This document shows, in pieces, positions 3,272-30,124 of a stretch of DNA of 32,000 nucleotides. Below the pieces are notes generated by a model that was given only the letters and a program-made list of their open reading frames with translations, made no database searches and was not told where the DNA came from. The first letter of the stretch is position 1; each line of letters opens with the position of its first letter. The position numbers and the translations under genes were made by a program. Origin of the DNA: an uncultured bacterium (lineage in GTDB: Bacteria; Auribacterota; JACPWU01); assembly GCA_964640155.1 (NCBI GenBank), contig CAZXEQ010000003.1, positions 164,189 to 196,188 of the forward strand. The letters are read 5' to 3'.

Positions 3272-3283
3272 TAAATTTTATTT

Positions 3284-5554: not shown

Positions 5555-7227
5555 GAGCTCATAGAAGGCGCTTTTTCCGGGACGCGATAGAGGTAAAGGG
5601 TCTTCGTTTTTACAGGCCCTTCTTTAAATATTTTTTTTTGAATAAGAGGTAAATCATTAATGAAAAAAGTACAAGTTACAACCCTTGCTCCAGGGCGAAG
5701 ACGATTTTGAAGAAGGGATTTCAATTTAGGATAAATGGGAGTGGGTAAATACAATGTTACAACAGTGGCTGACCCAACATTTGCTTGTTTAACGTCTTCT
5801 AATAGAAATTGTACACGAGAGCCTACGCCTGCTTGATGAGCATTCTCTTTCGCTTCAGAAATGCGTTGAGGGTCTATATCAATTCCTACACCTCGCGCTC
5901 CATGCATCTTAGCAGCTGCAATGACAATACGCCCATCCCCACAGCCTAAATCATAGACAATATCTTGAGGCCCTACCTCAGCTAATTCAAGCATTTTCTT
6001 AATCACTGCAGGAGATGAGGGTGCGTAAGTCGCCAAATCTGTTTTTGGGAGTCCACGAATCAGTTTGAATATATATTTTGCGATTAATCGAACTGGCCGT
6101 ATGAAATAATAGAGTGCGCAGAGCGATTTAGGCAAAGGTAAAAGAACCCAATCTTGAGGAGTAGGTATCGTACACCTAAGACAAAACTTGATTTTATCAG
6201 TCCATCTCTCAAAAGTTTGAAGATAGAGGAAGTTGTTAGCCAAAAATTTAGATAGACGGTGTTGTTTTTTGAAAAGTCTTTCTTTGACTTTTTTTGTCAA
6301 AACTCCCACTTTTAATAAATCATTTTCAATTTCTTGAATTATATTTTGAGGAAGATTCACTTCAAATAAGTCAGTGGCTAAGCGAAGTCCAAGAAATAGC
6401 ATACGTTGTCCATTTAATTCATAAGCTCTTTTAATTACCCATTTCCAGTTTATATTGTCATAGGTTCGCAGTGTTTCAGCAACCTCACAGATCCAATTCA
6501 ATTTTTTCCATGCATGTTTAGCTCCATGAAAGCAGAGAATTAAAAGTAAATTTTCCGGTGAAAAAGTTTTCACAAATTTATTGGCTAAAGATACAGTTTC
6601 CAGATTTTCCCATAAAGTTTCATCCGTGTCTGGGCGTGAAAAAGAGAAAAAGCTCAGATCTGTTCTCCAATGAAGATCAATATGAATCTTATTTCGGGTA
6701 AAGGTTTGTTTGCGGTCGATTTGAAGTAAGTCTTCTTGTTGTTCTTGAGTTAGTTTAAAGAGGGAGGAATAACCATAATTCTCTAAAATTTTTTTTGCTT
6801 TTAATGCATTTCTTTGATGTATAAAAATGTCTAGATCAACAAATTTATGAAGAGTGAAATCCTTATAGAGAGCTGCTGCTAAAACAGGTCCCTTGTAAAA
6901 AATAGCAGGAATATCTTCCTTTTTGAGTGAATCTAAAATTTTGAATAATTCCAGGGTTATTGAGAGGGAACGTCTTGAATTAATCTGAAAATATTCTTGA
7001 AGTTCTGCAAGAACAAATTGAGGAACAAGATCAGAAAAATGAGACTTTATGTTTTTGTACAAAAGAGACGCCACTTGGTGATGCGCGGCAATTTGAAGGA
7101 AATAATTCCAGTTGATCTTTTGCTGGAGTAAAATTTTAATCTGCTCTATCTTTTTTGAGGGCATTTCTGTTCGTGTACAAGCAATGAGAAGTTTTTCTTC
7201 AGGACGAAAATTACAATGGGTGAGCAT
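5551..7227 (-). CDS. Fusion protein: lasso-cluster-type nucleotidyltransferase (NTP_transf_5/PF14907-like) plus a C-terminal class I SAM-dependent methyltransferase
   Basis: The N-terminal ~390 aa are paralogous to ORF 7343..8446 (YKGPVLAAALY...FVDLDIFI, a pol-beta-type G..DxD; HGAKHAWKKLNWICE). The C-terminal ~165 aa carry SAM motif I, VYDLGCGDGRIVIAAAK, followed by GIDIDP. It is a single uninterrupted ORF. Confidence 0.8.
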   Translation of the reverse strand: MLTHCNFRPEEKLLIACTRTEMPSKKIEQIKILLQQKINWNYFLQIAAHHQVASLLYKNIKSHFSDLVPQFVLAELQEYFQINSRRSLSITLELFKILDSLKKEDIPAIFYKGPVLAAALYKDFTLHKFVDLDIFIHQRNALKAKKILENYGYSSLFKLTQEQQEDLLQIDRKQTFTRNKIHIDLHWRTDLSFFSFSRPDTDETLWENLETVSLANKFVKTFSPENLLLILCFHGAKHAWKKLNWICEVAETLRTYDNINWKWVIKRAYELNGQRMLFLGLRLATDLFEVNLPQNIIQEIENDLLKVGVLTKKVKERLFKKQHRLSKFLANNFLYLQTFERWTDKIKFCLRCTIPTPQDWVLLPLPKSLCALYYFIRPVRLIAKYIFKLIRGLPKTDLATYAPSSPAVIKKMLELAEVGPQDIVYDLGCGDGRIVIAAAKMHGARGVGIDIDPQRISEAKENAHQAGVGSRVQFLLEDVKQANVGSATVVTLYLPTPIYPKLKSLLQNRLRPGARVVTCTFFINDLPLIQKKIFKEGPVKTKTLYLYRVPEKAPSMSS

Positions 7228-7342: not shown

Positions 7343-8446
7343 TCAAGAACTTGAGGTTTTAAAAGGACTTGTCATTTTTTTTAGAATGAAACGAACTGAT
7401 CGTACGATATACTTTGGTGTAATAGACTTTAGGAGCAATCGTATTTTGTCTTTATGTCCCTCCATAGTTGAAAAACGAAAAGTAATATCAAAAATTCTAG
7501 AAAGGGCATGTTTTTTCTTAAAGAGTCGCTCACATGTTTTATAGACTAACTTTTTAACGTTAGGATCTTTTTGTATAAATTTGATTGCTTCGTTTGGGAT
7601 AGGGATTTTGAAGAGGTTTTCTGACAGGCAAAGAGCTAATAAAACCATTCTTTTTTGAGTTTTGTTTTCAGCTCTTTTCAATATCCATGACCAATTCATT
7701 TCAGGGTATTTCTCAATCATTTCTGTAATATCAGATATCCAATTAAGACGGTTCCAAGCATGTTGAGCTCCGTGTGCGCAGAGGACTAAAAATAAATGCT
7801 CTGGAGAAAAGGTGTGTAAAAAATGATTTCCTAAAACTATTGATTGAGCTCTTTCTTCTAAAGGTTCGTTTATTGTATGTGTTTCCCAGTGAAGATCTAT
7901 ATAGACCCCATTTTTTAAAAAAGTTGGATCACAATGATATCGAAAAATATAATCCCATTGGTCGTCTGTGAATCCCATGCTTATGTGGTAGCCTTGAGCC
8001 TGTAAAAGATTTTTAGCTTTAGGGGCATCGTTCTTGTGGATAATAATATCTAAGTCATTAAATTGTCGCAGATGGACCTGTCCATAAAGCATTAGAGCTA
8101 GAATAGGGCCTTTATAAGAAATAACAAAAATATTTTGCTTTGCAAATAAATCCAAAATTTTTATTAATTCCGCGGTCATTTGCAGTGTACGTCGTGAAGA
8201 GTTCTCAAAGTATTCACGAAGTTTGGCCAAAACGAGATCTGGAACATTCTCGCGAAAGAAAGAGTTTAAATGTGTGTAAACAAGGGGTGTGAGTTTATGA
8301 TAAAAGACAATTTTAACAAAGTAGTCCCAATCTATATTTCCCTTTAGTAGATCTTTGATGTGTTCTGTTTTATCGGGACTGAGGGGAGATCGCGCACAGG
8401 CAAACAGAAGTTTTTGTTCAGGACTAAAGAAATTGTGTTGTATCAT
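7343..8446 (-). CDS. Nucleotidyltransferase family protein (NTP_transf_5/PF14907-like), stand-alone paralog
   Basis: It aligns along its whole length with the N-terminal part of 5551..7227 (FSPEQKLLFACAR, YKGPILALMLY...FNDLDIII, HGAQHAWNRLNWISD). The ATG at 8446 (MIQHNFF) matches the paralog N-terminus. The track start at 8458 is a TTG. Confidence 0.8.
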   Translation of the reverse strand: MIQHNFFSPEQKLLFACARSPLSPDKTEHIKDLLKGNIDWDYFVKIVFYHKLTPLVYTHLNSFFRENVPDLVLAKLREYFENSSRRTLQMTAELIKILDLFAKQNIFVISYKGPILALMLYGQVHLRQFNDLDIIIHKNDAPKAKNLLQAQGYHISMGFTDDQWDYIFRYHCDPTFLKNGVYIDLHWETHTINEPLEERAQSIVLGNHFLHTFSPEHLFLVLCAHGAQHAWNRLNWISDITEMIEKYPEMNWSWILKRAENKTQKRMVLLALCLSENLFKIPIPNEAIKFIQKDPNVKKLVYKTCERLFKKKHALSRIFDITFRFSTMEGHKDKIRLLLKSITPKYIVRSVRFILKKMTSPFKTSSS

Positions 8447-8452
8447 AAAAAA

Positions 8453-10363
8453 ATGCAAACACCTTGTATTGAAATAAAAGCCTCTCTATTTGGAGGAATC
8501 ATTTTTCCCTCTGGCTCTTTACATGGTTCAAATGAGACAGTGAAAAAGGCATTACAGTTTGATGACAAGCCTCAACCAGTATTAACTTATGAAAGTGCCA
8601 CATGTCTGGTGTCGCAGTGGATATACACCAATCCAATGTTTCACAATGTAAAAGATTCTTCAACTTTTTTCTTTAAACAAGATCGCTATGTTATTGTGAC
8701 ATGGTCTCGACTAGACAATCGTTTTGAGATTGCATTAAAGCTTCATATTCATCCTCGGGAACTTTCGGATTTAACGGATGGGGATCTTATCCTTAAAACC
8801 TATCTCCGTTTTGGCTCTGAGTGTGCAAAACACTTGGTCGGTGATTTTGCTTTCGTTATCTACGACACAGTAGAGTGTACAACTTATTGTGCGAGAGATC
8901 CTATAGGAATACGTCCATTTTTTTATGCTCAAGCAGGAGATATTTTAATTTTTGCTACACATATGTCGTTCTTTCATAAGATACCATTTTTTAAATCTGA
9001 AATAGATGAACTGTGGCTTTCCAGATTTATCTTAAATACTTATTTTAATTCTAGAGAGACAACGTGCTGTACCAATATTAAGAAATTGTTGCCAGGGCAT
9101 GTTTTAACATATCGTCATCAACAAATTCAAATAACGAGGTATCATGATTTTGATCCCGATAAGACTCTTTCCTTAAAAGATAAGCGCGATTATATAGAAA
9201 TTTACCAAGATACTTTAAAGCAAGCAGTGAGTTGCCGGCTTTCTCAAAATAAAATAATAGGGGCAGAACTTAGTGGAGGATTAGACTCTACATCTGTTAT
9301 TGGCGTTGCTTTAGAATGTGATCCTGATCTGTATCAGACATTGCATACCTTTGGCCACGATAAACTGGATTTCGATGGTATTTATATGGATGAAGCACTT
9401 TCTTATTGGAAGCTTCAAGGCCCCCATCACCGTTTTCAGAATGACGAAATGATGGAACATTATCGTAATATTCCTGAAACCATTGCGTTACTTGGACAGC
9501 CAGAGCAAGGAGGTATGGCCTCTTATCATATTCCATTTTATAGATTGGCTGAGAAAAAAGGCATTCAGGTATTGCTTTCGGGTTTTGGAGGAGATGAGGT
9601 CGTAACTCATCAGACAGGATTTGTAATTTTAGAGTTATTATCCAAAGGCCAATTCAAGAAAGCTTGGCAGGCTTTACCGGGACCATTTATAGAAAAAATA
9701 CTTAGATTTTTTAAATATTGCGCTAGTTTAAGTTGTTATGAATTCATCCATCAACGCTATTATCAGTCTTTATTAAAAGAGGTTAAAGATAGGCTTGCTT
9801 ATATGCCTTTGGCAACACCGTGGAAAGAAAAATTCCTTTTAATAAAACCGCACTTTAATGAGGCCAAAATAAGAAGCGGCATATGTGTAAATCAAGAATG
9901 CTTACAAAAACTCTTTCAGCCTGCATTGACAGCTCGGTTAGAAGCTTCTTCGGTTTTAGCTGCAGCTTACAAAATAGAATATGTCTGGCCTCTTCTAGAT
10001 GTGAGACTCATTGAATTATTTTTATCGATTCCTTCAGAGTACAAGTGGTTTCAAGGAATAGCGCGTTATTTGCACCGAGAAGCTATGATAGGTAAAATTC
10101 CTGAAAGAATTCGACAGTCCCTGACAAAGTATATGGGGAAAATGAAATATTCGTCTTCTATATACTCTATAGCCGAGGTCAATGATTTTTTTTGCAGAAC
10201 GTTTCCCCCTTCTTTTAATAAAATGATAGATGTTAAACGACTGAATAAATTAGATTGTCTTAATCGGACTCAGATTAAAACTAAAGAGAGTAAACCTTTT
10301 GTATATGAGAGCATTCTTCATCGTTGTATGCAATTAGATCAGTGGTTGAATGATTGCGTTTAG
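8453..10363 (+). CDS. Lasso peptide cyclase C1 (asparagine synthetase B-like isopeptide-bond-forming enzyme)
   Basis: It has an Asn-synthase-type adenylation signature, GAELSGGLDSTSV (SGGLDS PP-loop), and LLSGFGGDEV. An N-terminal GATase-like domain lacks Cys2, as in McjC-type enzymes. It is a close paralog of 17939..19846. The first ATG in the ORF is at 8453. The track start at 8360 is a GTG inside the divergent neighbour. Confidence 0.85.
   Translation: MQTPCIEIKASLFGGIIFPSGSLHGSNETVKKALQFDDKPQPVLTYESATCLVSQWIYTNPMFHNVKDSSTFFFKQDRYVIVTWSRLDNRFEIALKLHIHPRELSDLTDGDLILKTYLRFGSECAKHLVGDFAFVIYDTVECTTYCARDPIGIRPFFYAQAGDILIFATHMSFFHKIPFFKSEIDELWLSRFILNTYFNSRETTCCTNIKKLLPGHVLTYRHQQIQITRYHDFDPDKTLSLKDKRDYIEIYQDTLKQAVSCRLSQNKIIGAELSGGLDSTSVIGVALECDPDLYQTLHTFGHDKLDFDGIYMDEALSYWKLQGPHHRFQNDEMMEHYRNIPETIALLGQPEQGGMASYHIPFYRLAEKKGIQVLLSGFGGDEVVTHQTGFVILELLSKGQFKKAWQALPGPFIEKILRFFKYCASLSCYEFIHQRYYQSLLKEVKDRLAYMPLATPWKEKFLLIKPHFNEAKIRSGICVNQECLQKLFQPALTARLEASSVLAAAYKIEYVWPLLDVRLIELFLSIPSEYKWFQGIARYLHREAMIGKIPERIRQSLTKYMGKMKYSSSIYSIAEVNDFFCRTFPPSFNKMIDVKRLNKLDCLNRTQIKTKESKPFVYESILHRCMQLDQWLNDCV
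8810..8869. repeat. 60-nt perfect inverted repeat, copy 1 (inside cyclase C1)
   Basis: tttggctctgagtgtgcaaaacacttggtcggtgattttgctttcgttatctacgacaca is the exact reverse complement of 19454..19513. It encodes FGSECAKHLVGDFAFVIYDT in both paralogs. Confidence 0.9.
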
Positions 10364-10378
10364 ATTTGGTGTAAATAA

Positions 10379-11008
10379 TCAATTGCTAAAAGTATAATGA
10401 AAGAGCGATATGTCTTTTTGATATAGATCTGCAATTCTGTTTCGTAGCTCATCGTCATAATAATTGAAATAGGGGAGGTGTTCTGACTTGTTGATAATAT
10501 TGAGTGTTTCGGTAGGGATGCCTATTTTTTTACAGGCAAGGTCGTAAGATTCTTGGAGATTTTCCTGGCGACAAATATAATCAATCATAAGTGCATCCGA
10601 AGTATCAGTGATAAATTGGTATTGTGGAGCAAATAAGATTCTCTTTTGATGGACTGAATCTTTTGCAATTTTTTTTAGAGTGAGTAAAGTATTCTTTTTT
10701 AAAATGTCGGTGTTTCTATACATAAAAAAGACATAAGAGATGAATCTGTCCCATGGATTACGTACACAAGCAAATTTAAAGTAAGAATTCCAAATATTTT
10801 CTCCCACGGCTTTTTTTATTTCATTTGCTGAAATATGACCATGGTTAATGCTGGCAATTTCTTTATAAGGTGCTTTTTTTTTAACGAAGAGTCCTACCTG
10901 TTCTATATCATCTTTTGCTAGGTGCTTTCTTAAAGCAAAACGAATGGCATGAGTACCTGTTTTAGGAATAGCAATAAAAATAAATTTGTACTTGTGTGAG
11001 ATGATCAT
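10379..11008 (-). CDS. Sulfotransferase (Sulfotransfer_2/carbohydrate-sulfotransferase-like family)
   Basis: It has a 5'-PSB-type loop, IPKTGTHAIRF, and a VRNPWDRFISY motif, both characteristic of PAPS-dependent sulfotransferases of the PF03567 type. Its start has an ATGA overlap with the upstream hydroxylase gene. Confidence 0.7.
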   Translation of the reverse strand: MIISHKYKFIFIAIPKTGTHAIRFALRKHLAKDDIEQVGLFVKKKAPYKEIASINHGHISANEIKKAVGENIWNSYFKFACVRNPWDRFISYVFFMYRNTDILKKNTLLTLKKIAKDSVHQKRILFAPQYQFITDTSDALMIDYICRQENLQESYDLACKKIGIPTETLNIINKSEHLPYFNYYDDELRNRIADLYQKDISLFHYTFSN

Positions 11009-11583
11009 TGATTGGAAGGTATCTCTAAATATTCAAAGATAAGATGGATTCTGTCACAATTTCCATCATTCTTCACAGCATGCAGTGTTGCGTTATTAAC
11101 TTCATAGGCATATCCCTCTTTTAGATTATATTTTTTAGAGGATTGAAAGAACCAGGCATCAGGGTTAGTTTGAATAGGGATATGTATTTTATGAGGCCTG
11201 TTCTGTAAAATATTTCCATCAATATGTGGTGGGATTTTTGCGCCGGGAGGTAATTTCGCGAGCATAACCCTAGGATAAAAACCATTTGTATAACCATAAT
11301 GTTGAGTCACCTCATTCATTACGGGTAATAGTTTGTCTTTCCATTTATCCCATACAGGTAGATCAAAATAGGTGATAGGCACCTGTTTTTTATTAGAAAA
11401 TTTAAAAATGATATGCTGAGTTTGTTTTAAAACCCCATCTTTATTGTAATTCGCTTTTTCTGAATCCGTGTCGTTCCAATCGTTTTTCGGGATGGTTAGG
11501 ATATGATCTTTAATAGAGGAAATATTGATTTTACAGATTTCGAGTATTTCTTTTGTTTTTTTTGTGTTTATTTCTAGTTTCAT
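11005..11583 (-). CDS. Aspartyl/asparaginyl beta-hydroxylase-like Fe(II)/2-oxoglutarate oxygenase
   Basis: It has the pattern IPPHIDGN...RPHKIHIPIQT...NNATLHAVKNDGNCDRIHLIFEY, which is typical of the Asp_Arg_Hydrox cupin family (HxD...H facial triad). Confidence 0.7.
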   Translation of the reverse strand: MKLEINTKKTKEILEICKINISSIKDHILTIPKNDWNDTDSEKANYNKDGVLKQTQHIIFKFSNKKQVPITYFDLPVWDKWKDKLLPVMNEVTQHYGYTNGFYPRVMLAKLPPGAKIPPHIDGNILQNRPHKIHIPIQTNPDAWFFQSSKKYNLKEGYAYEVNNATLHAVKNDGNCDRIHLIFEYLEIPSNQ

Positions 11584-11680
11584 AAAGTTTATTGATTTTT
11601 TTATTGTATTTAAATAAAGTATGATAATATTATATGAAATATGGTATTGTTTATTTTTAATTTAAGAAAGGCCTAAAATA

Positions 11681-11836
11681 ATGAGCTTAAATGAATCTCA
11701 TAAAAATGATCCCGGGCTTATAGTAAAGAAAGAACTTTGGCAATCTCCAAAGCTTCTTTATCTTAATTTGGATGGAACTGAGTCAGGTCCTACTTATCAC
11801 ATGGGCTACGAAGATGCAATGTATGTCTCTCACTAA
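11681..11836 (+). CDS. Candidate lasso peptide precursor A1 (51 aa, not in the ORF track): MSLNESHKNDPGLIVKKELWQSPKLLYLNLDGTESGPTYHMGYEDAMYVSH
   Basis: This is a hand translation. The ATG at 11681 is the first ATG after an in-frame TAA (11663), with GAAAGG 9 nt upstream. The leader carries an aromatic-xx-P-x-L motif (WQSPKL) and a Thr near the cleavage site, as in lasso leaders. The proposed core is GPTYHMGYEDAMYVSH (Gly1, Glu9 ring acceptor). The leader block is homologous to the second small ORF at 17635..17790. Confidence 0.75.
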   Translation: MSLNESHKNDPGLIVKKELWQSPKLLYLNLDGTESGPTYHMGYEDAMYVSH

Positions 11837-11993
11837 TCATGTTTTTTAAAATGATATTTAATTTTTTTGAAGCACGGCCATCCTGTTTTTTTTCTATTGT
11901 GTACTCACAAAAATAATTCTTTTTCTTCTTCTTTTATAAAGCAGCGAATCTCATTTTAAGATTAGATTAAATTACAAGAAAAACTGAAATTTC

Positions 11994-12974
11994 TTAGATA
12001 AATTCAATTTCCTTTAGCAAGGTGGCAAGATGTTCTTGCGAGAAGTGTTGAATGCCTCTAGGAATATTTGCTTCATAGATAGGGACTCGTTTTACGATGG
12101 ATATAATCATTTTAAGCTGATGCCTTACAAGCTCTCTGGCTTGCCAGGGAATTCTGGGATAATGGTTAAGATGAATAACAGCCTCACTGGCTTTTAGCCG
12201 TCTTACAGTCAAATTTTTAAATTTGATAGATAACCGAGGAATGACAATAGTTTTGAGAGTAGGGTATTCGTTTAAACTGCTAGAAACACGTACGATAAAT
12301 CGTTTATCTGCAGATATTCCGATGAGAGTTTCCGGAAAAAGTTTTGCAACGTTTTCAGCATTGGGGCGTAATCGAATTTCTGATGTTCCTGGAAAGCAAC
12401 TTACCGTGTTTTTGTAAAATTTAAGACGAAGTGTATCATCCGTAATTAGCCTAGCTCCATTTGAACATAGAAGGGCGGCTAAAGTAGATTTTCCCATTCC
12501 TGAATTTCCTACAAAAGCAAGAGCTGTATTTTTAATTTCTACTGCACTTGCATGCAATACAGTATGTCCTTGTAGGGTAAGAATGAAAGTAATAACATTT
12601 CCTGAGATGAGCAGGGGAATAATGTCAGGGTCCGCATGGGGGGTAAGGTGAACGTGTATATGCCGACATTCGAAATCCATTCTGAATTCACAAAAATCAT
12701 GATAACGCAAAATATAACCCGTAGCGGTTTGTGTATATATATAACCTTTTCCATTTTTATAAGAAAATTTTGCAAGAATCTGGCCTTCCTGTAGTGTGCT
12801 TGAAAAGTTACAGTTCTCACCCCAATAGATATTTAGATCTTCAAGCGAATTATCATTATAAATAGGTGTTCCAAGAGGAATTTCAGATCGAATGGATAAA
12901 CCATAGAGCTTATAGGTGGGATAAGATTTTAGTTTTTTATTGGCTTTTAAAGGATCTGCTTGGATTTGAGGCAT
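11994..12974 (-). CDS. HPr kinase/phosphorylase C-terminal-domain-like kinase K1 (lasso precursor kinase family)
   Basis: It has the P-loop FVGNSGMGKSTLAALL followed by LITDDT, as in HPrK/P and paeninodin-type lasso kinases. The ATG at 12974 is preceded by GAGAGGAAA. From there the N-terminus (...YKLYGLSIRSEIPL) aligns with paralogs K2 and K3. The longer ORF extending to 13037 is possible. Confidence 0.8.
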   Translation of the reverse strand: MPQIQADPLKANKKLKSYPTYKLYGLSIRSEIPLGTPIYNDNSLEDLNIYWGENCNFSSTLQEGQILAKFSYKNGKGYIYTQTATGYILRYHDFCEFRMDFECRHIHVHLTPHADPDIIPLLISGNVITFILTLQGHTVLHASAVEIKNTALAFVGNSGMGKSTLAALLCSNGARLITDDTLRLKFYKNTVSCFPGTSEIRLRPNAENVAKLFPETLIGISADKRFIVRVSSSLNEYPTLKTIVIPRLSIKFKNLTVRRLKASEAVIHLNHYPRIPWQARELVRHQLKMIISIVKRVPIYEANIPRGIQHFSQEHLATLLKEIEFI

Positions 12975-13229
12975 TAATTTCCTCTCTTGAAGATTAAGTG
13001 GTGTGTAGAATTTATCTGTCTTTTTTAAAGAAGTCAATACACAATGGGTTTGTCAAATAAGATTAAAGTTATTATACAAAAGAACGCTTAAGATGAAGCG
13101 AGGCGGCATTTAGTTTATGCTTCTTACCGAGAGATTGCATATATACAGAAAACTTATTTCTTGTTGAATACAAGTAGATTCATATTTAAAATTGTGGCTT
13201 AGTAAAATAGGGGGTTGTGGGTGAAATAC

Positions 13230-14150
13230 ATGAACTATAAAGCTTTTGGATTAATCCTATCGTCTTCTTTGTCTTTACCTTTTATTGAAGTATCTTCAGA
13301 AACTGTACCCGACTGTCTTATTTCAATAGGGGAAGTTCCTTCTCCTATTGACATCCCGTCATTAAAGTCTCTCGGTTTGTGTGTATATGTCAATTCAGAA
13401 AATGTAGTTGTTGATGTAGAAGGTGTTGCTCGTTTTCATTGCCAATTGAATAAGATTATTGTACAGACTTTGGGTGCGTGTGAGGCAGGCGTGATTGCTT
13501 TTCTAGTATATTCAGCCTTACCCTATTGGCTATTGTTGAGAGGACAGATGGTGCTTAGAGGTTGTGCGATTACTTGGGACGGAGTTCACAGCCAATTATG
13601 GTTATCTCATTCAGGGGTAGGGAGCTCGACTTTTGCAGCTTATGCGGTACAACGAGGAGCAAAACTTTTAAGTGATCATCTTTGTGTGATAGGTTTTAAC
13701 GAGAAAAAAATTAGTACAGTACAAAGTGGGATTTCCCAAATAAAATTATGGCAAGATGCCTTAAATCAGTTGCAGATTAAGAGTGCATCTTTAGCTCCTA
13801 TTCGGTCTGGACTGATGCAGTTTTTATGGGATGTAACAGAAAATTTTTATCATCAATCCTTGCCCATTTCTCAAGTTATAAGCTTGAGTGTTTCCAATGA
13901 TGTGAAGGATAATGGATTGAAAAAGTTTTTAGGTTTAGAGAAAATAAAATATTTGAGCGCTTACAATTATTGTCATACATTTGGAGATGTTTTGTTGAAG
14001 AAGACTTTTCAGGCCCCTCTCTTGGTAGCCTTAGCTAATCAAGTAGCAGTTTATTCGTTTACTCGCTTGAGTGGACAGAAAATAGGTGATGGAGTGAATA
14101 ACACGATGGATGAGATTTTTCCTTTCTTTAAGGAGTCTGTCCTTGCTTAA
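13230..14150 (+). CDS. HPr-kinase-like paralog K2 with a degenerate P-loop (putative pseudokinase)
   Basis: The N-terminus MNYKAFGLILSS aligns with K3 (MNAYRAFGLNILS). The P-loop position reads LSHSGVGSSTF (GKS changed to GSS). The following ADD/TDD position reads SDH. Alternative starts are GTG 13221 (GGGGG 6 nt upstream) and TTG 13215. Confidence 0.7.
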   Translation: MNYKAFGLILSSSLSLPFIEVSSETVPDCLISIGEVPSPIDIPSLKSLGLCVYVNSENVVVDVEGVARFHCQLNKIIVQTLGACEAGVIAFLVYSALPYWLLLRGQMVLRGCAITWDGVHSQLWLSHSGVGSSTFAAYAVQRGAKLLSDHLCVIGFNEKKISTVQSGISQIKLWQDALNQLQIKSASLAPIRSGLMQFLWDVTENFYHQSLPISQVISLSVSNDVKDNGLKKFLGLEKIKYLSAYNYCHTFGDVLLKKTFQAPLLVALANQVAVYSFTRLSGQKIGDGVNNTMDEIFPFFKESVLA

Positions 14151-15936: not shown

Positions 15937-16821
15937 ATGAAACAAGATCTTCCTCTTATTTGGTTGGCCTCCTATCCTAAGTCTGGGAATACATGGTTTC
16001 GCGTTTTTTTAGCTAATTTGCTTCAAGAGGAAAAAGATAAAGTAATACCTGTTTCTATTAATCAATTAATGGTGGGGCAGATTGCAAGCAGTCGAGCGGC
16101 TTTTGATCAAGTTTATGGAATTGATTCAAGCCTTTTAACCTTAGAAGAAATTGATGCGAAACGTCCAAAGCTGTATAAAAAATGGGTAAATTTAGATAAT
16201 GATAAAACTCGCTTTCATAAAGTTCATGATGCGTATACTTTCTTGCCAAATGGCGACCCCCTCTTAGGAAATCCAAGTCAACAAAAAGCTTTGTATTTTA
16301 TTCGCAATCCTTTAGATGTAGCAGTATCATTTGCTTATCATAGTGGTTATACGGATATGAATAAAATGATTGAGAAGATGAATGAGGTCTCCTATGCTTT
16401 TTGTCACCGTAAAATCTGTTTTTATTCTCAACTACGTCAACAATTATTAAGTTGGCATGAGCATGTTTTGAGTTGGATTGATCAGTGTAAAATGCCTGTT
16501 CATGTGATGAGATATGAAGATATGGTGAATGATCCTATCTCAATTTTTTATAAAGCTATACAATTTATAGGTTTATCTCAGAGTGTTTTGGATGTCGAAA
16601 AAGCATTAGAATTAAGCTCTTTTTCTAATTTACAGAGTCAAGAAGCTCAAGAAGGTTTTAAGGAAAAGTCTCCGAAAACAAAAGCATTTTTTCGTAAAGG
16701 TAAGATTGGTTCATACCGTGAGTCATTAACACAAGAGCAGATTGAATCTTTAATTCAGGCTCATGCCAAGGTTATGCACCGTTTTGGCTATCTTGACAAC
16801 ACTGGAGCACCTGTGTTTTAA
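15937..16821 (+). CDS. Sulfotransferase (Sulfotransfer_1, cytosolic PAPS-dependent type)
   Basis: It has the 5'-PSB motif SYPKSGNTWFRVFL and the 3'-PB motif FFRKGKIGSYRE. AAGGA lies 8 nt upstream of the ATG. Confidence 0.85.
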   Translation: MKQDLPLIWLASYPKSGNTWFRVFLANLLQEEKDKVIPVSINQLMVGQIASSRAAFDQVYGIDSSLLTLEEIDAKRPKLYKKWVNLDNDKTRFHKVHDAYTFLPNGDPLLGNPSQQKALYFIRNPLDVAVSFAYHSGYTDMNKMIEKMNEVSYAFCHRKICFYSQLRQQLLSWHEHVLSWIDQCKMPVHVMRYEDMVNDPISIFYKAIQFIGLSQSVLDVEKALELSSFSNLQSQEAQEGFKEKSPKTKAFFRKGKIGSYRESLTQEQIESLIQAHAKVMHRFGYLDNTGAPVF

Positions 16822-16849: not shown

Positions 16850-17152
16850 ATGTCTGATTATTTATTTCAGTCCGATGACATTCTGGTTAGAGAAAAAAAT
16901 TTGTTTTCTGCAAATATAGATGATGATGTTGTAATGCTCGACGAATCTTCTGGGAATTATTTTGGTCTAAATCCTGTTGCTGGTAAAATTTGGCAGCTTC
17001 TAGAAAAGCCAATTCGTTTAAGAGATCTTATTAATAGCTTAACCACCCACTATGAAGTTGACAGGCTGCAATGCGAACAAGAAACGGCCAGTTTTCTAAA
17101 TTCATTGAATGAACGTAAACTATTACACATCACTCATGCTGAAAAAGCTTAA
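16850..17152 (+). CDS. Lasso peptide biosynthesis B1 protein (PqqD-family RiPP recognition element)
   Basis: It is a ~100 aa PqqD-like protein (VVMLDESSGNYFGLNPVAGKIWQLLEKPIRLRDLINSL). It sits directly upstream of, and overlaps, the B2 protease gene. Confidence 0.85.
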   Translation: MSDYLFQSDDILVREKNLFSANIDDDVVMLDESSGNYFGLNPVAGKIWQLLEKPIRLRDLINSLTTHYEVDRLQCEQETASFLNSLNERKLLHITHAEKA

Positions 17153-17585
17153 GAGTTATTGGCGTTTACCTTTGGAATTACGCAGGGCATCCAGAGAAGC
17201 TTTCTTATATTTAACTTTCTCAAAAATTTTAATCAAGAGTATTCCCATCCGTTTTTCTTTGAAGTATTTGGGTGTTAAGAATATAGATCTTTCCAGAAGT
17301 GATGTGAGCTGCGATCCGAGTGTTCTTTTCCTGATCAGACAGAGCATTTATTTGGTGAGTAAAAATTTACCTTGGAGGAGTAAATGCTTAGATCAGGCTA
17401 TGACTGCACAATGGATGCTTTCCAGAAGAAATTTACCTACGACACTATACTTGGGAATGAGAAAATCCGATAACGCTAAAAAATCTTATGATGCGCATGC
17501 TTGGGTATGTTGCGGTAATATGCCTGTTATAGGAGTGCAGCCTCAGGTGGGATATGTTGTAGTAGGGAGATATTCTTTCCTGTAA
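17136..17585 (+). CDS. Lasso peptide biosynthesis B2 protein (transglutaminase-like Cys leader peptidase)
   Basis: It has the pattern WRSKCLDQAMTAQWML...YDAHAWVCCG (catalytic Cys and His of the Transglut_core3/McjB family). The probable start is MLKKLKSYW at 17136, which overlaps B1 by 17 nt. The track start is 17109. Confidence 0.85.
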   Translation: MLKKLKSYWRLPLELRRASREAFLYLTFSKILIKSIPIRFSLKYLGVKNIDLSRSDVSCDPSVLFLIRQSIYLVSKNLPWRSKCLDQAMTAQWMLSRRNLPTTLYLGMRKSDNAKKSYDAHAWVCCGNMPVIGVQPQVGYVVVGRYSFL

Positions 17586-17634: not shown

Positions 17635-17790
17635 TCATGAAAAAACACCGCAAGCAGCTTCAGGGACTACCGCGCATCCTCCTTCAGTTTGAACAGATAA
17701 ATCAATTTGAATAAGAGTTGGTGTTTGCCAGAGTTCTTTTTTTTGTTTAGTTTTGGAAACGGTTTTATGAGTGGATTGTTGAGTTCGCAT
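17635..17790 (-). CDS. Candidate lasso peptide precursor A2 (51 aa, not in the ORF track): MRTQQSTHKTVSKTKQKKELWQTPTLIQIDLSVQTEGGCAVVPEAACGVFS
   Basis: This is a hand translation of the minus strand. GAGGAA lies 6 nt upstream of the ATG at 17790, and the TGA stop is at 17637-17635. The leader motif is KKELWQTPTL with Thr at -2. The core is GGCAVVPEAACGVFS (Gly1, Glu8, two Cys, C-terminal Ser). It lies immediately downstream of cyclase C2 on the same strand. Confidence 0.8.
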   Translation of the reverse strand: MRTQQSTHKTVSKTKQKKELWQTPTLIQIDLSVQTEGGCAVVPEAACGVFS

Positions 17791-17938: not shown

Positions 17939-19846
17939 TTATGTAAGATTTTTGCTATTTTTCATCATAGATAAAAGTAGTTTGATTTGTATGGAGCGAT
18001 TGATAAAAGTTCTATAAACGAAAGACTTTTCACCTTTTAGACAAGTGTCATTTTTGTGTTCATTATGTAATTTTTGCAATTTTTTTATATTTACAATTTT
18101 TTGAGTAAGAGGGTGTTGGGGTTCAGAAAAAAGTCGATTTGCTTGTGTGCTGCTGCTAATGGACGGGAAAGGTTTAATATTTCCCATTTCTTTTGTAGGT
18201 TGTGCTCGGATAGATTCTGGAATTTTCTCTTTCATTGCTTCCCTGTGTAGATAGCGAGTTATTCCTTGATGCCATTTATATTCTGCTGGAACAGACAGAA
18301 ATAATTCGATTAGACGGATATCTAAAAGGGGCCAAGCGTATTCGATGTTGTAAGCGGCTGCCAGAATGGAACATTCTTCTAATCGGGCAATTGCAATAGG
18401 TCCAAAAGTTTTTTCTAAACATTGTTCATTTACATGCGTATAACCTTCTCGTTGAGCAAGAGCAAAATATTTTTTTCTGAGCTGTAAATTTTGTTTCCAA
18501 TGTAAGAGGAGAGGAGCATGTACAAGACGTTCTTTTAATGCTTTTAAATAAATCTTGTGATTACAGCGCTTATGGGCAAGTTGGTAATAACAGAGGAGAG
18601 CTAATTGTTTTAATAAGTGTAGTGATCGCTTGATCGGTTTTCCATGGAGAGCTCGCCATGCTTTCTTAAACTGCCATTTAGATAAAAGTTCAATAATAAC
18701 AATTTGAGTTCTTTGAGTAACAAACTCATCTCCACCAAACCCAGAAAGTAGTATTTGAACACCTTCTTTTTCTGCCTGTTTATAAAAAGGAATATGAAAA
18801 GAGCCCATTCCTAATTCTTCAGGGTATCCAAGAAGAGAGACGGTTTCAGGCATATTCTCATAATGTTGTCCAAAGAGAACATCGTTATAGAAACGGTGGT
18901 GAGGGCCTTGTAAATTGAAATAAGTAAGCGCTTCATCAATGCAAGGTCCGTCTAAATCCATTTTATCATGTGCAAATGTATGTAATGTTTGACGAAGTTC
19001 AGGATTACATTCAAGAGCTGTGCCAATGATAGAAGTGGAGTCTAATCCACCACTGAATTCGGCTCCAATTGGTTTATTTTCAGGAATACGGCACCGAACA
19101 GCTTCTTTAAGTGCTTTCTGATAAACTTGAATATACTCATGCGTGTCTTTTAGATGAAGTATTTTATAAGGGTCAAATGCATGATAACGCGTAATTTGAA
19201 TTTTATGATTACGATAGATGAGAAAGTGTCCAGGTGCTAATTTTTGTATGTTGTTATAAAAAGTTTCTGTAAGGCTTAATGGAATATGAAGTAAATATTG
19301 TACGAGTCGAGATTCGTCTATCTGAGCTTTAAAAAAAGGTAATTTATGAAAAAAGGAAATATTTGAAGCAAAAATAAGACTCTTTTCTTGCTGGGCATAA
19401 AAAAGAGGTTTTACACCGATAGGATCTCGCGCACAGTATAAAGTTTTATCTAGTGTGTCGTAGATAACGAAAGCAAAATCACCGACCAAGTGTTTTGCAC
19501 ACTCAGAGCCAAAGCGTAAATAACTTTCAAGAATGATATCCACATCGCTTAGTGATGAGAGTTTATAGGGGGCGATACCAAGTTTTAGAGCTATCTCAGG
19601 CCGGTTGTCTAAGCGAGACCAAGCAAGAACAACATAACGGTTTTTTCTTAAGAAAAAAGTTGTTGGATTTTTTGTGTCTTGAGCAGATTGATTGCCTTGA
19701 GTCCATTGGGCTATGGCATATAGGTTATCTTGATGAGATAGGGTTCTTTGTGGTTGATTAGGGAATTGTAGGGCATGCTCAACGGCATTTGGATCTATAT
19801 CTAATTGGGATTCAGAAACAATTCCAGCAAAGAGAGATGTTTTCAT
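17939..19846 (-). CDS. Lasso peptide cyclase C2 (asparagine synthetase B-like)
   Basis: It is a paralog of C1 with the same motifs (GAEFSGGLDSTSI, LLSGFGGDEF, AAAYNIEYAWPLLDIRLIELFLS). The start is MKTSLFAGIV. Confidence 0.9.
   Translation of the reverse strand: MKTSLFAGIVSESQLDIDPNAVEHALQFPNQPQRTLSHQDNLYAIAQWTQGNQSAQDTKNPTTFFLRKNRYVVLAWSRLDNRPEIALKLGIAPYKLSSLSDVDIILESYLRFGSECAKHLVGDFAFVIYDTLDKTLYCARDPIGVKPLFYAQQEKSLIFASNISFFHKLPFFKAQIDESRLVQYLLHIPLSLTETFYNNIQKLAPGHFLIYRNHKIQITRYHAFDPYKILHLKDTHEYIQVYQKALKEAVRCRIPENKPIGAEFSGGLDSTSIIGTALECNPELRQTLHTFAHDKMDLDGPCIDEALTYFNLQGPHHRFYNDVLFGQHYENMPETVSLLGYPEELGMGSFHIPFYKQAEKEGVQILLSGFGGDEFVTQRTQIVIIELLSKWQFKKAWRALHGKPIKRSLHLLKQLALLCYYQLAHKRCNHKIYLKALKERLVHAPLLLHWKQNLQLRKKYFALAQREGYTHVNEQCLEKTFGPIAIARLEECSILAAAYNIEYAWPLLDIRLIELFLSVPAEYKWHQGITRYLHREAMKEKIPESIRAQPTKEMGNIKPFPSISSSTQANRLFSEPQHPLTQKIVNIKKLQKLHNEHKNDTCLKGEKSFVYRTFINRSIQIKLLLSMMKNSKNLT
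19454..19513. repeat. 60-nt perfect inverted repeat, copy 2 (inside cyclase C2)
   Basis: It is the exact reverse complement of 8810..8869. Flanking codons of the two paralogs differ at many synonymous sites. Confidence 0.9.
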
Positions 19847-21693: not shown

Positions 21694-21809
21694 AGATGAG
21701 ATACATATACGCACAGGAAAAGCTAGGTCCTTTCTTCAGAGAATGTGACTGAAAGGGCGGAGCTCTATGGAGAAGTCAATATGTTGGATCCTATAAAAAG
21801 AAGAAAGAG

Positions 21810-24072: not shown

Positions 24073-24073
24073 T

Positions 24074-29446: not shown

Positions 29447-29447
29447 T

Positions 29448-30107: not shown

Positions 30108-30124
30108 TCTTAGAATATAGAAAT

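What the first reader, a model, noticed from the sequence alone, without database searches (positions are those of the whole stretch)
11681..11836. Unannotated 51-aa ORF: lasso precursor A1 with predicted 9-residue ring
The ORF is below the 60-aa track cutoff. Its sequence is MSLNESHKNDPGLIVKKELWQSPKLLYLNLDGTES|GPTYHMGYEDAMYVSH. The leader has the aromatic-xx-P-x-L recognition motif known from lasso leaders (YxxPxL) and a Thr near the cleavage site. The Thr is at -3 if the core starts at Gly36, or at -2 if it starts at Ser35. With Gly1 the only acidic residue in the allowed window is Glu9, giving a 16-mer with a 9-residue ring and a 7-residue tail. The peptide ends in Ser-His rather than the C-terminal Ser used by paeninodin-type kinases, so the kinase target is unclear.
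Basis: partly seen in the sequence, partly recalled or inferred. Interest (0 to 1): 0.8.

Follow-up and report, generated by a model that had tools for sequence, protein, structure and literature searches.

The report
Atypical lasso peptide precursor gene
A 51-codon gene inside a large lasso-peptide gene cluster of an uncultured, probably Chlamydiota-related bacterium very likely encodes a second, unusual precursor for a knotted ('lasso') peptide; this would be a new variant of a well-known class, and no experiment has tested it.

Summary
The ORF is real: 11681-11836 (+), 51 aa, exactly as quoted. It lies in an otherwise empty intergenic gap of a lasso-peptide cluster (about 5.5-20.7 kb). The cluster has one B1/B2 pair, one ABC exporter, two paralogous cyclases, three HPr-kinase-like genes, two sulfotransferases, two NTP_transf_5 genes and an Asp/Asn beta-hydroxylase.

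A1 shares the leader block KKELWQxPxL with a second 51-aa ORF, A2 (17635-17790, -). The similarity is far above chance. Used as a query, A1 retrieves genuine precursors from foreign clusters as its best hits. The closest, from a Lentisphaerae MAG, aligns without gaps to a 16-residue A1 core (G1, H5, Y8, E9, D10).

So the lasso-precursor reading is well supported. The 9-residue ring (Gly36-Glu44) is the only solution that obeys the 7-9 rule. However, leader-side evidence points to Ser35 as residue 1: Thr33 at -2, the usual 'T-E|' junction, and an x-G-P core start as in paeninodin. That would give an unprecedented 10-residue ring.

A1 is also the only family member that does not end in Ser. No orthologue exists in about 1.8 billion representative proteins.

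Verdict: new variant of a known kind, moderate interest, untested experimentally.

The parts
11681..11836 (+). A1: 51-aa precursor ORF including the stop codon. Leader is residues 1-35 (11681-11785) and core is residues 36-51 (11786-11833) under the Gly36 model.
   Evidence: called as a gene on three independent contigs
11726..11755 (+). Leader recognition block KKELWQSPKL (residues 16-25; W20-x-x-P23-x-L25), the presumed B1/RRE binding site
   Evidence: 8 of 10 residues are identical to A2, with 2 synonymous codon differences. The motif class YxxPxL is described in PMC10368454.
11777..11788 (+). Cleavage junction T33-E34-S35-G36. The leader/core boundary is either E34|S35 or S35|G36.
11810..11812 (+). 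Glu44 codon (GAA), the predicted isopeptide acceptor: position 9 from Gly36, position 10 from Ser35
   Evidence: The Y-E-D triplet aligns with Y8-E9-D10 of the L041 precursor.
11664..11671 (+). Shine-Dalgarno-like AAGAAAGG, 9 nt before the ATG
   Evidence: Read directly; weak evidence
8453..10363 (+). C1: lasso cyclase paralogue, the presumed partner of A1. The true start is ATG 8453, not GTG 8360.
   Evidence: NF033535 1e-81 and Asn_synthase; identical 636-aa product P0007; 55% identical to C2; keeps all 72 invariant columns of 25 cyclases
11005..11583 (-). Fe/2OG-type Asp/Asn beta-hydroxylase family protein, divergent from A1
   Evidence: PF05118 3e-10; rare in related loci
10379..11008 (-). 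Sulfotransfer_2 family protein (ST2); its start overlaps the hydroxylase stop by 4 nt
   Evidence: PF03567 1.7e-14; a homologue in only 1 of about 80 loci
11994..13037 (-). K1: HPr-kinase-like protein, convergent with A1 and catalytically intact (LHAS / GMGKST / TDD). Called elsewhere as 326 aa, starting at 12974.
13215..14150 (+). K2: degenerate HPr-kinase-like protein lacking 3 of the 4 His-Lys-Asp-Asp catalytic residues
   Evidence: motif taken from PMC9266682
14110..15924 (+). D: ABC exporter
15937..16821 (+). ST1: Sulfotransfer_1 protein, the most conserved accessory gene of the family
   Evidence: PF00685 1e-30; 48-52% identity in the best of 47 loci with a hit; nearest solved structures are Teg12, Teg14 and StaL
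16850..17152 (+). B1: PqqD-like RRE, the only one in the cluster
   Evidence: PF05402 4e-17
17109..17585 (+). B2: transglutaminase-like leader peptidase, the only one in the cluster
   Evidence: PF13471 9e-18
17635..17790 (-). A2: paralogous 51-aa precursor MRTQQSTHKTVSKTKQKKELWQTPTLIQIDLSVQTE|GGCAVVPEAACGVFS. It is canonical: Thr(-2), Gly1, Glu8 and a C-terminal Ser.
17939..19846 (-). C2: second lasso cyclase
19887..20744 (-). K3: HPr-kinase-like protein, intact (LHGN / GSGKST / ADD), the type found in 57 related loci
7343..8458 (-). NTP_transf_5 protein (PsmN-like nucleotidyltransferase family)
   Evidence: PF14907 3e-59
5551..7227 (-). NTP_transf_5 fused to a C-terminal SAM methyltransferase domain
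   Evidence: PF14907 9e-58 plus Methyltransf_31/25

Best explanation
A1 is a genuine ribosomal precursor of a class II lasso peptide, the second substrate of a two-precursor, two-cyclase cluster.

Proposed pathway; all steps are inferred from sequence and from characterised homologous systems, and none is shown for this peptide.
1. The 51-aa peptide is translated.
2. Its leader block KKELWQSPKL (W20, P23, L25) is bound by the single PqqD-like B1 protein.
3. Tailoring enzymes act on the B1-bound linear precursor. Candidates are the adjacent hydroxylase and the translationally coupled sulfotransferase ST2, and possibly kinase K1 acting on Thr38 or Ser50.
4. B2 removes the leader.
5. The neighbouring cyclase C1 adenylates Glu44 and joins it to the new N-terminus.
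6. The ABC transporter exports the product.

The most likely product is the 16-mer GPTYHMGYEDAMYVSH with a Gly1-Glu9 ring and a 7-residue tail (unmodified lasso mass 1838.739 Da). In that product Ser35 is a one-residue insertion at the end of the leader and Thr33 is displaced to -3.
For: - Context: a complete lasso machinery surrounds the ORF (B1, B2, two cyclases, ABC exporter).
- Machinery ratio: there are two intact cyclases, 55% identical, but only one B1/B2 pair. That matches two precursors with a shared leader motif and unrelated cores.
- Similarity to A2: score 59 against a shuffle maximum of 44. Of the 10 motif codons, 8 encode the same residue in both genes, and 2 of those 8 differ synonymously (AAG/AAA, CTT/CTC). 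The rest of the two peptides is essentially unrelated. This indicates purifying selection on both copies.
- Family membership: phmmer with A1 against about 13,700 small ORFs of the window and fetched loci returns A2 first. It then returns the L041 (Lentisphaerae) precursor at E 0.0097, then mostly further true precursors. BLASTP of A1 against L041 gives 35% identity over 46 aa, pairwise E 3e-6.
- Core register: A1 from Gly36 and the L041 core (canonical KTE|G) are both 16 aa. They align without gaps at G1, H5, Y8, E9 and D10.
- Spacing: in an ungapped alignment A1 Gly36 coincides with A2 Gly37, so W sits at -16 in both.
- Precedent for a junction insertion: the L005 and L007 cores match (10 of 16 identical, equal length) only if the L005 core starts at G-K, which puts its Thr at -4.
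- Thr(-2) is not obligatory in this family: only 24 of 47 foreign precursors have a canonical Thr(-2) solution. Ile(-2) has been validated experimentally (PMC10368454).
- Ring rule: the acceptor Asp/Glu lies at positions 7-9 in known lasso peptides (PMC9266682).
- Tailoring on B1-bound linear precursors is established for the kinases and for CanE.
Against: - No orthologue of A1 was found in 5.8 billion clustered proteins, 1.84 billion HMMER-scanned representatives, or a metagenome DNA scan for KKELWQxPxL. Conservation can therefore be judged only against A2 and distant relatives.
- The three other contigs carrying A1 are 100% identical, so they give no substitution pattern.
- Under the Gly36 model, position -2 is Glu, which is not seen at -2 among the G-K-type foreign junctions I read by eye. 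Thr33 sits at the modal Thr(-2) offset of 13 from the aromatic residue.
- 'T-E|' is the usual junction in A2, L041 and several others.
- Paeninodin and pseudomycoidin begin A-G-P, like S-G-P in A1.
- A1 lacks the C-terminal Ser present in all 45 top-scoring family members.
- A1 scores poorly against HMMs built from foreign precursors: E 0.15 for the full model and 4.5 for the leader-only model.
- No promoter-like or terminator-like site was found at sensible positions.
- There are no expression or mass-spectrometry data.
Confidence: 0.55

Rival explanations
1. A1 is a genuine precursor, but B2 cleaves at the conventional Thr(-2) site (E34|S35). The core is then the 17-mer SGPTYHMGYEDAMYVSH. 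The dedicated cyclase C1 closes Ser1 onto Glu10, giving a 10-residue macrolactam (lasso mass 1925.771 Da). Tail modifications such as sulfate or phosphate might act as the steric plug.
For: - Thr33 lies 13 residues after the aromatic residue, which is the modal position of Thr(-2) in the family.
- The gapped alignments to A2 and to L041 place A1 T33-E34 on their T-E and place Ser35 on their Gly1.
- 'T-E|G' is a recurrent junction.
- The characterised kinase-type peptides paeninodin and pseudomycoidin start A-G-P, so x-G-P would be S35-G36-P37.
- L084 and L082 read T-x|T-G-P-T...E9 under the same rule.
- C1 is a diverged paralogue, 55% identical to C2, and could have a changed ring specificity.
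- The pseudomycoidin paper states that PTMs can help maintain the threaded topology (abstract of PMC6993621).
Against: - Reviews place the acceptor at positions 7-9 in known lasso peptides.
- No paper in the library mentions a 10-residue ring.
- The S35 register needs a gap to align with the L041 core, whereas the G36 register does not.
- L005 and the three L009 precursors show that the Thr can be displaced by junction insertions. A strict Thr rule would give a 12-residue ring in L009.
Confidence: 0.2
2. A1 is a decaying or non-productive duplicate of A2. It may still be bound by B1 but is not matured into a lasso peptide, or it is not expressed at all. The cluster's real product would come from A2.
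For: - A1 lacks two family hallmarks: a canonical Thr(-2)/ring solution and the C-terminal Ser.
- It is a singleton with no orthologue.
- It scores weakly against foreign precursor HMMs.
- No promoter or terminator was detected.
- One neighbouring kinase-like gene (K2) is clearly degenerate, so the cluster does contain decayed parts.
Against: - The ORF is intact at exactly the paralogue's length.
- The B1-binding block is the one part that has stayed conserved while everything else diverged, and it carries synonymous differences.
- Gly and Glu are spaced correctly for a ring.
- The core resembles an independent foreign core.
- The adjacent cyclase C1 keeps every invariant residue, and a second cyclase would have no purpose without a second substrate.
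- BsfA shows that a kinase-cluster precursor need not end in Ser.
Confidence: 0.15
3. A1 is processed by the cluster into something other than a threaded lasso. Examples are a branched-cyclic (unthreaded) peptide or a linear hydroxylated/sulfated peptide released by B2.
For: - The 7-residue tail is short for a 9-residue ring and has only Met/Tyr/His as possible plugs (read from the sequence).
- A1-specific neighbours, the hydroxylase and ST2, are not part of the usual family set.
Against: An intact dedicated cyclase lies next to A1. From my own knowledge, 15-16-residue lasso peptides with 7-residue tails are known, for example the sungsanpin/ulleungdin type. This was not tested here.
Confidence: 0.1

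Closest known systems
Paeninodin / pseudomycoidin-type lasso peptides (PadeA, PsmA; Firmicutes) and SyanA (Sphingobium): HPr-kinase-associated lasso clusters
   Same: - Split B1/B2, an HPr-kinase homologue, an NTP_transf_5-type nucleotidyltransferase and an ABC exporter.
- A sulfotransferase gene has been noted in such clusters (PMC8498205).
- An aromatic-xx-P-x-L leader.
- The core begins x-G-P (AGPG... against S-G-P-T).
   Different: - Those precursors end in Ser, which is the phosphorylation site. A1 ends in Ser-His.
- They have Thr(-2), Ala1 and Asp9. A1 has no canonical solution that keeps Thr at -2.
- A1's cluster has two cyclases and two precursors, three kinase-like genes, a second sulfotransferase and a hydroxylase.
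- The leader aromatic residue is Trp, not Tyr.
BsfA/BsfK of Bradymonas sediminis (PMC10368454)
   Same: - A kinase-type lasso cluster whose precursor does not end in Ser: BsfA ends ...NNPGD.
- It lacks Thr(-2), having Ile(-2) instead.
- The kinase targets Ser3 of the core, helped by B1. Under the Gly36 model A1 has Thr at core position 3.
   Different: - BsfA has Y(-17)xxPxL spacing and a Gly1-Asp8 ring.
- Its mature lasso has never been observed.
- BsfK is no closer to K1 than to K3 (E about 2-4e-8 for both).
A2, the paralogue in the same window (17635-17790, -)
   Same: The same length (51 aa), the same KKELWQxPxL block, a T-E at the junction, and presumably the same B1/B2.
   Different: A2 is canonical (Thr-2, Gly1, Glu8, two Cys, C-terminal Ser). 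The A1 core is unrelated, is rich in Tyr and His, and ends Ser-His.
Uncharacterised precursor of a Lentisphaerae MAG (L041:4387-4557, -): ...KKKYTPPELIKLSFDKTE|GGWIHWWYEDSPWFQS
   Same: It is the best foreign hit to A1. Its core is also 16 residues, with G1, H5, Y8, E9 and D10 identical and an aromatic residue at position 13. Its cluster carries a kinase, an NTP_transf_5 gene, B1, B2 and D.
   Different: It has a canonical Thr(-2) and ends in Ser. No hydroxylase or sulfotransferase was found on its contig. A1 has one extra residue between T-E and the core.
Canucin A / CanE (Streptomyces canus)
   Same: A lasso cluster with an Fe/2OG hydroxylase that beta-hydroxylates an Asp of the linear precursor with help from B1. 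A1 has Asp45 right after the ring Glu and a PF05118 hydroxylase next door.
   Different: The CanE target is the C-terminal Asp. Homology between CanE and the window's hydroxylase was not tested because no CanE sequence was at hand. Here the hydroxylase is translationally coupled to a sulfotransferase.

Membership tests
Lasso peptide precursor (general) | Small ORF (about 30-70 aa) located within or next to genes for a lasso cyclase (C), a leader peptidase (B or B1+B2) and usually an exporter or isopeptidase | tested here: met
   The 51-aa ORF lies 1.3 kb from the end of C1 and 5 kb from B1/B2.
Lasso peptide precursor (general) | Leader carries the RRE-binding motif aromatic-x-x-P-x-L | tested here: met
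   W20-Q-S-P23-K-L25, shared with A2 and with a comparable motif ([W/Y/F]xxPx-hydrophobic) in 47 distinct foreign precursors. The aromatic residue is Trp rather than Tyr, as in many of the foreign precursors.
Lasso peptide precursor (general) | Thr, or rarely Ile/Val, at the penultimate leader position (-2) | tested here: inconclusive
   Thr33 is at -2 only if the core starts at Ser35. It is at -3 for Gly36, where -2 is Glu. Only 24 of 47 relatives have a canonical Thr(-2) solution.
Lasso peptide precursor (general) | Core residue 1 is Gly, Ala, Ser or Cys (Asn once), with an Asp/Glu acceptor at position 7, 8 or 9 | tested here: met
   Gly36 with Glu at position 9. This is not met for the Ser35 register, where the acids fall at positions 10 and 11. 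The rule comes from PMC9266682 and PMC12670498.
Lasso peptide precursor (general) | The mature product is a threaded macrolactam | not testable with these tools
   This needs MS/MS, NMR and carboxypeptidase or thermal assays.
Lasso peptide precursor (general) | Match to a curated precursor HMM | tested here: inconclusive
   A1 and A2 have no Pfam or NCBIfam hit. Six bona fide-looking foreign precursors also have no NCBIfam hit, so the libraries do not cover this family. RODEO could not be run.
Paeninodin-type C-terminally phosphorylated lasso peptides | An HPr-kinase homologue with the His-Lys-Asp-Asp motif is encoded in the cluster | tested here: met
   K1 and K3 keep the motif; K2 does not.
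Paeninodin-type C-terminally phosphorylated lasso peptides | The precursor ends in Ser, the phosphorylation site | tested here: not met
   A1 ends Ser50-His51. A2 and all 45 top leader-HMM hits end in Ser. A1 should therefore not be filed as a paeninodin-type substrate, although it may still be phosphorylated elsewhere, as BsfA is at Ser3.
Paeninodin-type C-terminally phosphorylated lasso peptides | Split B1 (PqqD) and B2 (transglutaminase-like) proteins | tested here: met
   PF05402 and PF13471.
Hydroxylated lasso peptides (canucin type) | An Fe/2OG hydroxylase in the cluster and a C-terminal Asp target in the core | tested here: inconclusive
   A PF05118 protein is adjacent, with H-x-D...H visible in its sequence. 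A1 has Asp45, but it is internal, not C-terminal. Homology to CanE was not tested.

The most novel reading that the evidence does not exclude
A1 is cut at the conventional Thr(-2) site. The dedicated paralogous cyclase C1 then closes Ser1 onto Glu10, giving the first lasso peptide with a 10-residue ring. The coupled hydroxylase/sulfotransferase pair and/or kinase K1 would add bulky tail modifications (beta-hydroxylation followed by O-sulfation, or Tyr/Ser/Thr sulfation or phosphorylation) that hold the thread in the wider ring. All of this would occur in a Chlamydiota-affiliated lineage from which no lasso peptide has been reported in the papers I could search.
Probability: 0.2. Interest if true: 0.75.

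Novelty: new variant of a known kind. Interest (0 to 1): 0.45.

Why it matters
Lasso peptides are valued as very stable scaffolds and as antibiotics, and the rules used to mine them are hard-coded into the standard tools. Those rules are Thr at -2, a ring of 7-9 residues and, for kinase clusters, a C-terminal Ser.

A1 breaks at least two of these rules whichever way it is read. It is therefore a natural test case for three questions.
- How do B2 peptidases choose their cleavage site: by distance from the B1-bound motif or by recognising Thr?
- Can cyclases make larger rings?
- What do the still uncharacterised sulfotransferases of these clusters do?

The cluster also carries a hydroxylase translationally coupled to a sulfotransferase, a combination I found described in no paper I could search. 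Its host appears to belong to the PVC/Chlamydiota group.

If A1 simply yields a Gly1-Glu9 16-mer, it is one more genome-mined lasso peptide with unusual tailoring. That would be useful but not surprising.

Tried and rejected
1. Searches for an orthologue all returned only A1 and A2, plus repetitive spurious proteins or chance matches.
   - Word-indexed search of 5.8 billion protein clusters.
   - Full HMMER profile search of A1+A2 against 1.84 billion representatives.
   - Metagenome scan with the A1/A2 alignment.
   - Back-translated KKELWQxPxL DNA scan of the metagenome collection: 76 hits, none precursor-like.
2. The first genome-contig scan, with C2 alone, found nothing. A profile of 25 cyclases was needed.
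3. A substitution-pattern (dN/dS-type) comparison across other contigs carrying A1 was impossible, because all three are 100% identical to the window.
4. The curated precursor HMMs (Pfam, NCBIfam) gave no hit. A control showed that this is uninformative.
5. Promoter and terminator scans and folding of the 3' region showed nothing above background. Rfam gave no hit in the window.
6. I tried to assign K1 or K3 to a substrate by comparing them with BsfK. Both hit equally.
7. Looking for A1-like (non-Ser-ending) precursors next to hydroxylase homologues in four loci (L032, L066, L070, L076) found only Ser-ending precursors.
8. I could not recover the source genome record or the sample metadata.
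9. A chance ORF was considered and rejected because of the paralogy statistics and family-level hits.
10. A different RiPP class was considered and rejected because the only RRE in the cluster is paired with a lasso B2 and two lasso cyclases.
Full report
**1. The observation**

ATG 11681 is the first start codon after an in-frame stop at 11663-11665. AAGAAAGG lies 9 nt upstream.

The ORF occupies a 410-bp gap between two minus-strand genes. The window holds 187 ORFs of 30-90 aa, so length alone means nothing. The exact peptide is already a predicted protein in the public collection and was called as a gene on three further contigs. Those contigs are 100% identical to the window at the DNA level. 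They show that the organism recurs in other samples but give no substitution pattern.

**2. Context**

The ORF sits inside a lasso-peptide cluster spanning about 5.5-20.7 kb.

| Coordinates (strand) | Gene | Note |
|---|---|---|
| 5551-7227 (-) | NTP_transf_5 + methyltransferase fusion | |
| 7343-8458 (-) | NTP_transf_5 | |
| 8453-10363 (+) | C1, lasso cyclase | NF033535 1e-81 |
| 10379-11008 (-) | ST2, Sulfotransfer_2 | |
| 11005-11583 (-) | Asp/Asn beta-hydroxylase family, PF05118 | its stop overlaps the ST2 start by 4 nt |
| 11681-11836 (+) | A1 | this finding |
| 11994-13037 (-) | K1, HPr-kinase-like | |
| 13215-14150 (+) | K2, kinase-like | |
| 14110-15924 (+) | D, ABC exporter | |
| 15937-16821 (+) | ST1, Sulfotransfer_1 | |
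| 16850-17152 (+) | B1, PqqD-like | |
| 17109-17585 (+) | B2, transglutaminase-like | |
| 17635-17790 (-) | A2, second 51-aa ORF | |
| 17939-19846 (-) | C2, lasso cyclase | |
| 19887-20744 (-) | K3, HPr-kinase-like | |

- C1 and C2 are 55% identical. Both keep all 72 invariant columns of a 25-cyclase alignment, including the SGGxDS loop.
- K1 and K3 keep the His-Lys-Asp-Asp catalytic residues described for lasso kinases (PMC9266682). K2 has lost three of the four.
- The cluster has a GC content of 32-36%, against 38-40% in the flanks.
- The pyruvate carboxylase at the window start is 79% identical to one labelled 'Chlamydiae/Chlamydiota bacterium' MAG. That relative has the same carboxylase and PIF1-WYL helicase neighbours but no lasso genes within 10 kb. 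The taxonomic assignment rests on this one marker.

**3. Is A1 a precursor?**

- **(a) Paralogy.** A2 reads MRTQQSTHKTVSKTKQKKELWQTPTLIQIDLSVQTEGGCAVVPEAACGVFS. It shares KKELWQxPxL with A1. The local score is 59, against 18.3 +/- 3.6 for 5000 shuffles (maximum 44). A2 is the best match to A1 among all small ORFs of the window. Within the motif, 8 of 10 residues are identical and two of the conserved codons differ synonymously. The remaining sequence is essentially unrelated. That pattern is expected if both leaders are held by selection for binding the single B1.
- **(b) Family.** The nearest foreign cyclase is only 35% identical. A profile scan of GTDB genomes gave 80 related loci, from Desulfobacterota, Legionellaceae, Coxiellaceae, Victivallales/Lentisphaerae, Opitutaceae and others.
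  - Most of these loci carry a small ORF near the cyclase with an aromatic-xx-P-x-hydrophobic leader, commonly a G-K core start, and Glu at position 8 or 9.
  - With A1 as a phmmer query against about 13,700 small ORFs from the window and all loci fetched by then, the best hits after itself are A2 (E 0.005) and the L041 Lentisphaerae precursor (E 0.0097). Most of the weaker hits that follow are also true precursors.
- **(c) The closest foreign core.** BLASTP of A1 against L041 gives 35% identity over 46 residues, pairwise E 3e-6. The L041 precursor ...KKKYTPPELIKLSFDKTE|GGWIHWWYEDSPWFQS has a canonical Thr(-2), Gly1 and Glu9. Its 16-residue core aligns without gaps to A1 from Gly36, with G1, H5, Y8, E9 and D10 identical.
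- **(d) Negative results.**
  - No Pfam or NCBIfam precursor model matches A1 or A2. None matches six foreign precursors either, so this is uninformative.
  - No orthologue of A1 exists in any collection searched.
  - No promoter or terminator stands out.

I conclude that A1 is very probably a real precursor. It is a singleton, so conservation can be judged only against A2 and distant relatives.

**4. Where does the core start?**

For Gly36 (9-residue ring, Gly1-Glu9):
- It is the only register with an acid at positions 7-9. Reviews give 7-9 as the rule for known lasso peptides.
- It gives the gap-free, equal-length match to the L041 core.
- In the ungapped alignment, A1 Gly36 falls on A2 Gly37, so the motif-to-cleavage spacing is the same for the two substrates of one B1/B2 pair.
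- There is a precedent for residues inserted between the Thr and the core. The L005 and L007 cores match (10 of 16 identical, same length) only if L005 starts at G-K, with its Thr at -4. The three L009 precursors would need 12-residue rings under a strict Thr rule.
- Only 24 of 47 foreign precursors have a canonical Thr(-2) solution at all. Ile(-2) has been validated experimentally (PMC10368454).

For Ser35 (10-residue ring, Ser1-Glu10):
- Thr33 lies 13 residues after the aromatic residue, the modal Thr(-2) position in the family.
- 'T-E|' is the commonest junction, seen in A2, L041, L016, L046, L053, L039, L042 and L047.
- The gapped alignments put Ser35 on Gly1 of A2 and of L041.
- The two characterised kinase-type peptides begin A-G-P: paeninodin AGPGTSTPD... 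and pseudomycoidin AGPGKRLVD... (PMC12427821). This resembles S-G-P in A1.
- Under the Gly36 model, position -2 would be Glu, which I did not see at -2 in the G-K-type junctions I read.

I rank Gly36-Glu44 first (about 0.55) and Ser35-Glu44 second (about 0.2). In both models Glu44 is the acceptor.

**5. The C-terminus and the kinases**

A leader-only HMM built from foreign precursors finds 45 top hits in the related loci, and every one ends in Ser. A2 ends in Ser as well. A1 ends Ser-His.

The characterised kinases PadeK, ThcoK, SyanK and PsmK phosphorylate the C-terminal Ser of the linear precursor. A1 therefore fails a defining feature of the paeninodin type.

There is a precedent for another arrangement. 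BsfA of Bradymonas ends in Asp and is phosphorylated on core Ser3. Under the Gly36 model, A1 has Thr at position 3. K1 lies next to A1, is only 24% identical to K3 and has extra N-terminal and internal segments. It might be the A1-specific kinase, but BsfK resembles K1 and K3 equally.

**6. Other tailoring**

- **ST1.** It is the most conserved accessory gene: 48-52% identity in the best of 47 loci with a hit, compared with 27-34% for the cyclases of those loci. Its nearest solved relatives are the glycopeptide sulfotransferases Teg12, Teg14 and StaL. I found no paper in the searchable library that characterises a lasso sulfotransferase.
- **Hydroxylase and ST2.** These are almost unique to this cluster. 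Weak hydroxylase homologues occur in 4 loci and an ST2 homologue in 1 locus. Because the two genes overlap by 4 nt and face A1, I infer that they act on A1. One possibility is hydroxylation followed by O-sulfation, for example at Asp45. Another is sulfation of one of the three Tyr residues. This is inference only.
- **Precedent.** CanE shows that lasso hydroxylases act on the B1-bound linear precursor.

**7. Comparison and novelty**

A1 works like a lasso precursor and meets the general membership tests, except for the ambiguous Thr(-2). It does not meet the C-terminal Ser criterion of the kinase-type subfamily in whose kind of cluster it sits.

Lasso clusters have been noted in amoeba symbionts such as Amoebophilus (PMC8831229). 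I found no report for Chlamydiae.

I classify A1 as a new variant of a known kind, with interest 0.45. The most novel reading still open is a 10-residue ring stabilised by tail modifications (probability about 0.2).

**8. Expected masses for testing**

| Species | Lasso mass (Da) |
|---|---|
| A1, Gly36 core | 1838.739 |
| A1, Ser35 core | 1925.771 |
| A2 | 1347.595 |

Noticed in passing
window 17635-17790 (-): A second 51-aa precursor ORF, A2 (MRTQQSTHKTVSKTKQKKELWQTPTLIQIDLSVQTE|GGCAVVPEAACGVFS). It is fully canonical (Thr-2, Gly1, Glu8, C-terminal Ser) and has two Cys that could form a disulfide. GAGGAA lies 8 nt before its ATG.
   Followed up: partly
window 13215-14150 (+): K2 is an HPr-kinase-like protein that has lost three of the four catalytic residues: LRGC for LHxx, GVGSST for GxGKST, and SDH for xDD. 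It is probably a pseudokinase or a peptide-binding scaffold. K1 and K3 are intact.
   Followed up: partly
window 5551-7227 (-): An NTP_transf_5 (PsmN-like) domain is fused to a C-terminal SAM-dependent methyltransferase domain (residues about 400-520). The two foreign NTP_transf_5 gene products listed are about 430 aa and have no recorded methyltransferase hit. The fusion could link phospho-glycosylation with methylation.
   Followed up: no
window 15937-16821 (+) and 47 related loci: The Sulfotransfer_1 gene is far better conserved across the family than the cyclase (48-52% identity in the best loci, against 27-34%). Its closest solved relatives are the glycopeptide sulfotransferases Teg12, Teg14 and StaL. 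Its substrate in lasso clusters appears to be uncharacterised in the searchable literature.
   Followed up: partly
window 10379-11583 (-): The hydroxylase (PF05118) and the Sulfotransfer_2 gene overlap by 4 nt, which suggests translational coupling. Among the roughly 80 related loci, only the Opitutaceae bacterium D2-102 locus (L032, about 17.9-19.7 kb) carries homologues of both.
   Followed up: partly
L009:11675-12355 (-), Zetaproteobacteria MAG: Three tandem precursor genes have extremely basic cores (for example ...FTEAGS|GKKKIRTKEQNKKVGS). Their Thr sits 5 residues before the conserved G-K start. A strict Thr(-2) rule would imply 12-residue rings.
   Followed up: no
L005:14027-14194 (+) compared with L007:7233-7415 (+): Two related clusters have cores that match (10 of 16 identical, same length) only if L005 carries a two-residue 'GS' insertion between its Thr and the core. 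This suggests that cleavage tracks the core start rather than the Thr in this family.
   Followed up: partly
window 8360-8458: The mechanical ORF for C1 starts at GTG 8360 and would overlap the divergent NTP_transf_5 gene by about 100 nt. The database product (636 aa) and the alignment with C2 both show that the real start is ATG 8453.
   Followed up: yes
window 68-4867 and 21121-31105: The flanks look like ordinary chromosome. On one side are pyruvate carboxylase (79% identical to a 'Chlamydiota bacterium' MAG protein) and a PIF1-like helicase with a WYL domain. On the other side a NusG/RfaH-like gene precedes a sugar-nucleotide operon (an epimerase/dehydratase family protein, an HldE-like kinase/cytidylyltransferase, a SIS-domain protein, two DegT aminotransferases and a methyltransferase). 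The nearest relative's carboxylase locus has no lasso genes.
   Followed up: partly
L001-L003 (Logan runs SRR8893623, SRR19881398, SRR26835457): Three independent public sequencing runs contain contigs 100% identical to window 8840-15643, 10544-12163 and 11317-12305. The same organism is therefore present in other samples. Whether any of these runs is RNA could not be checked.
   Followed up: no
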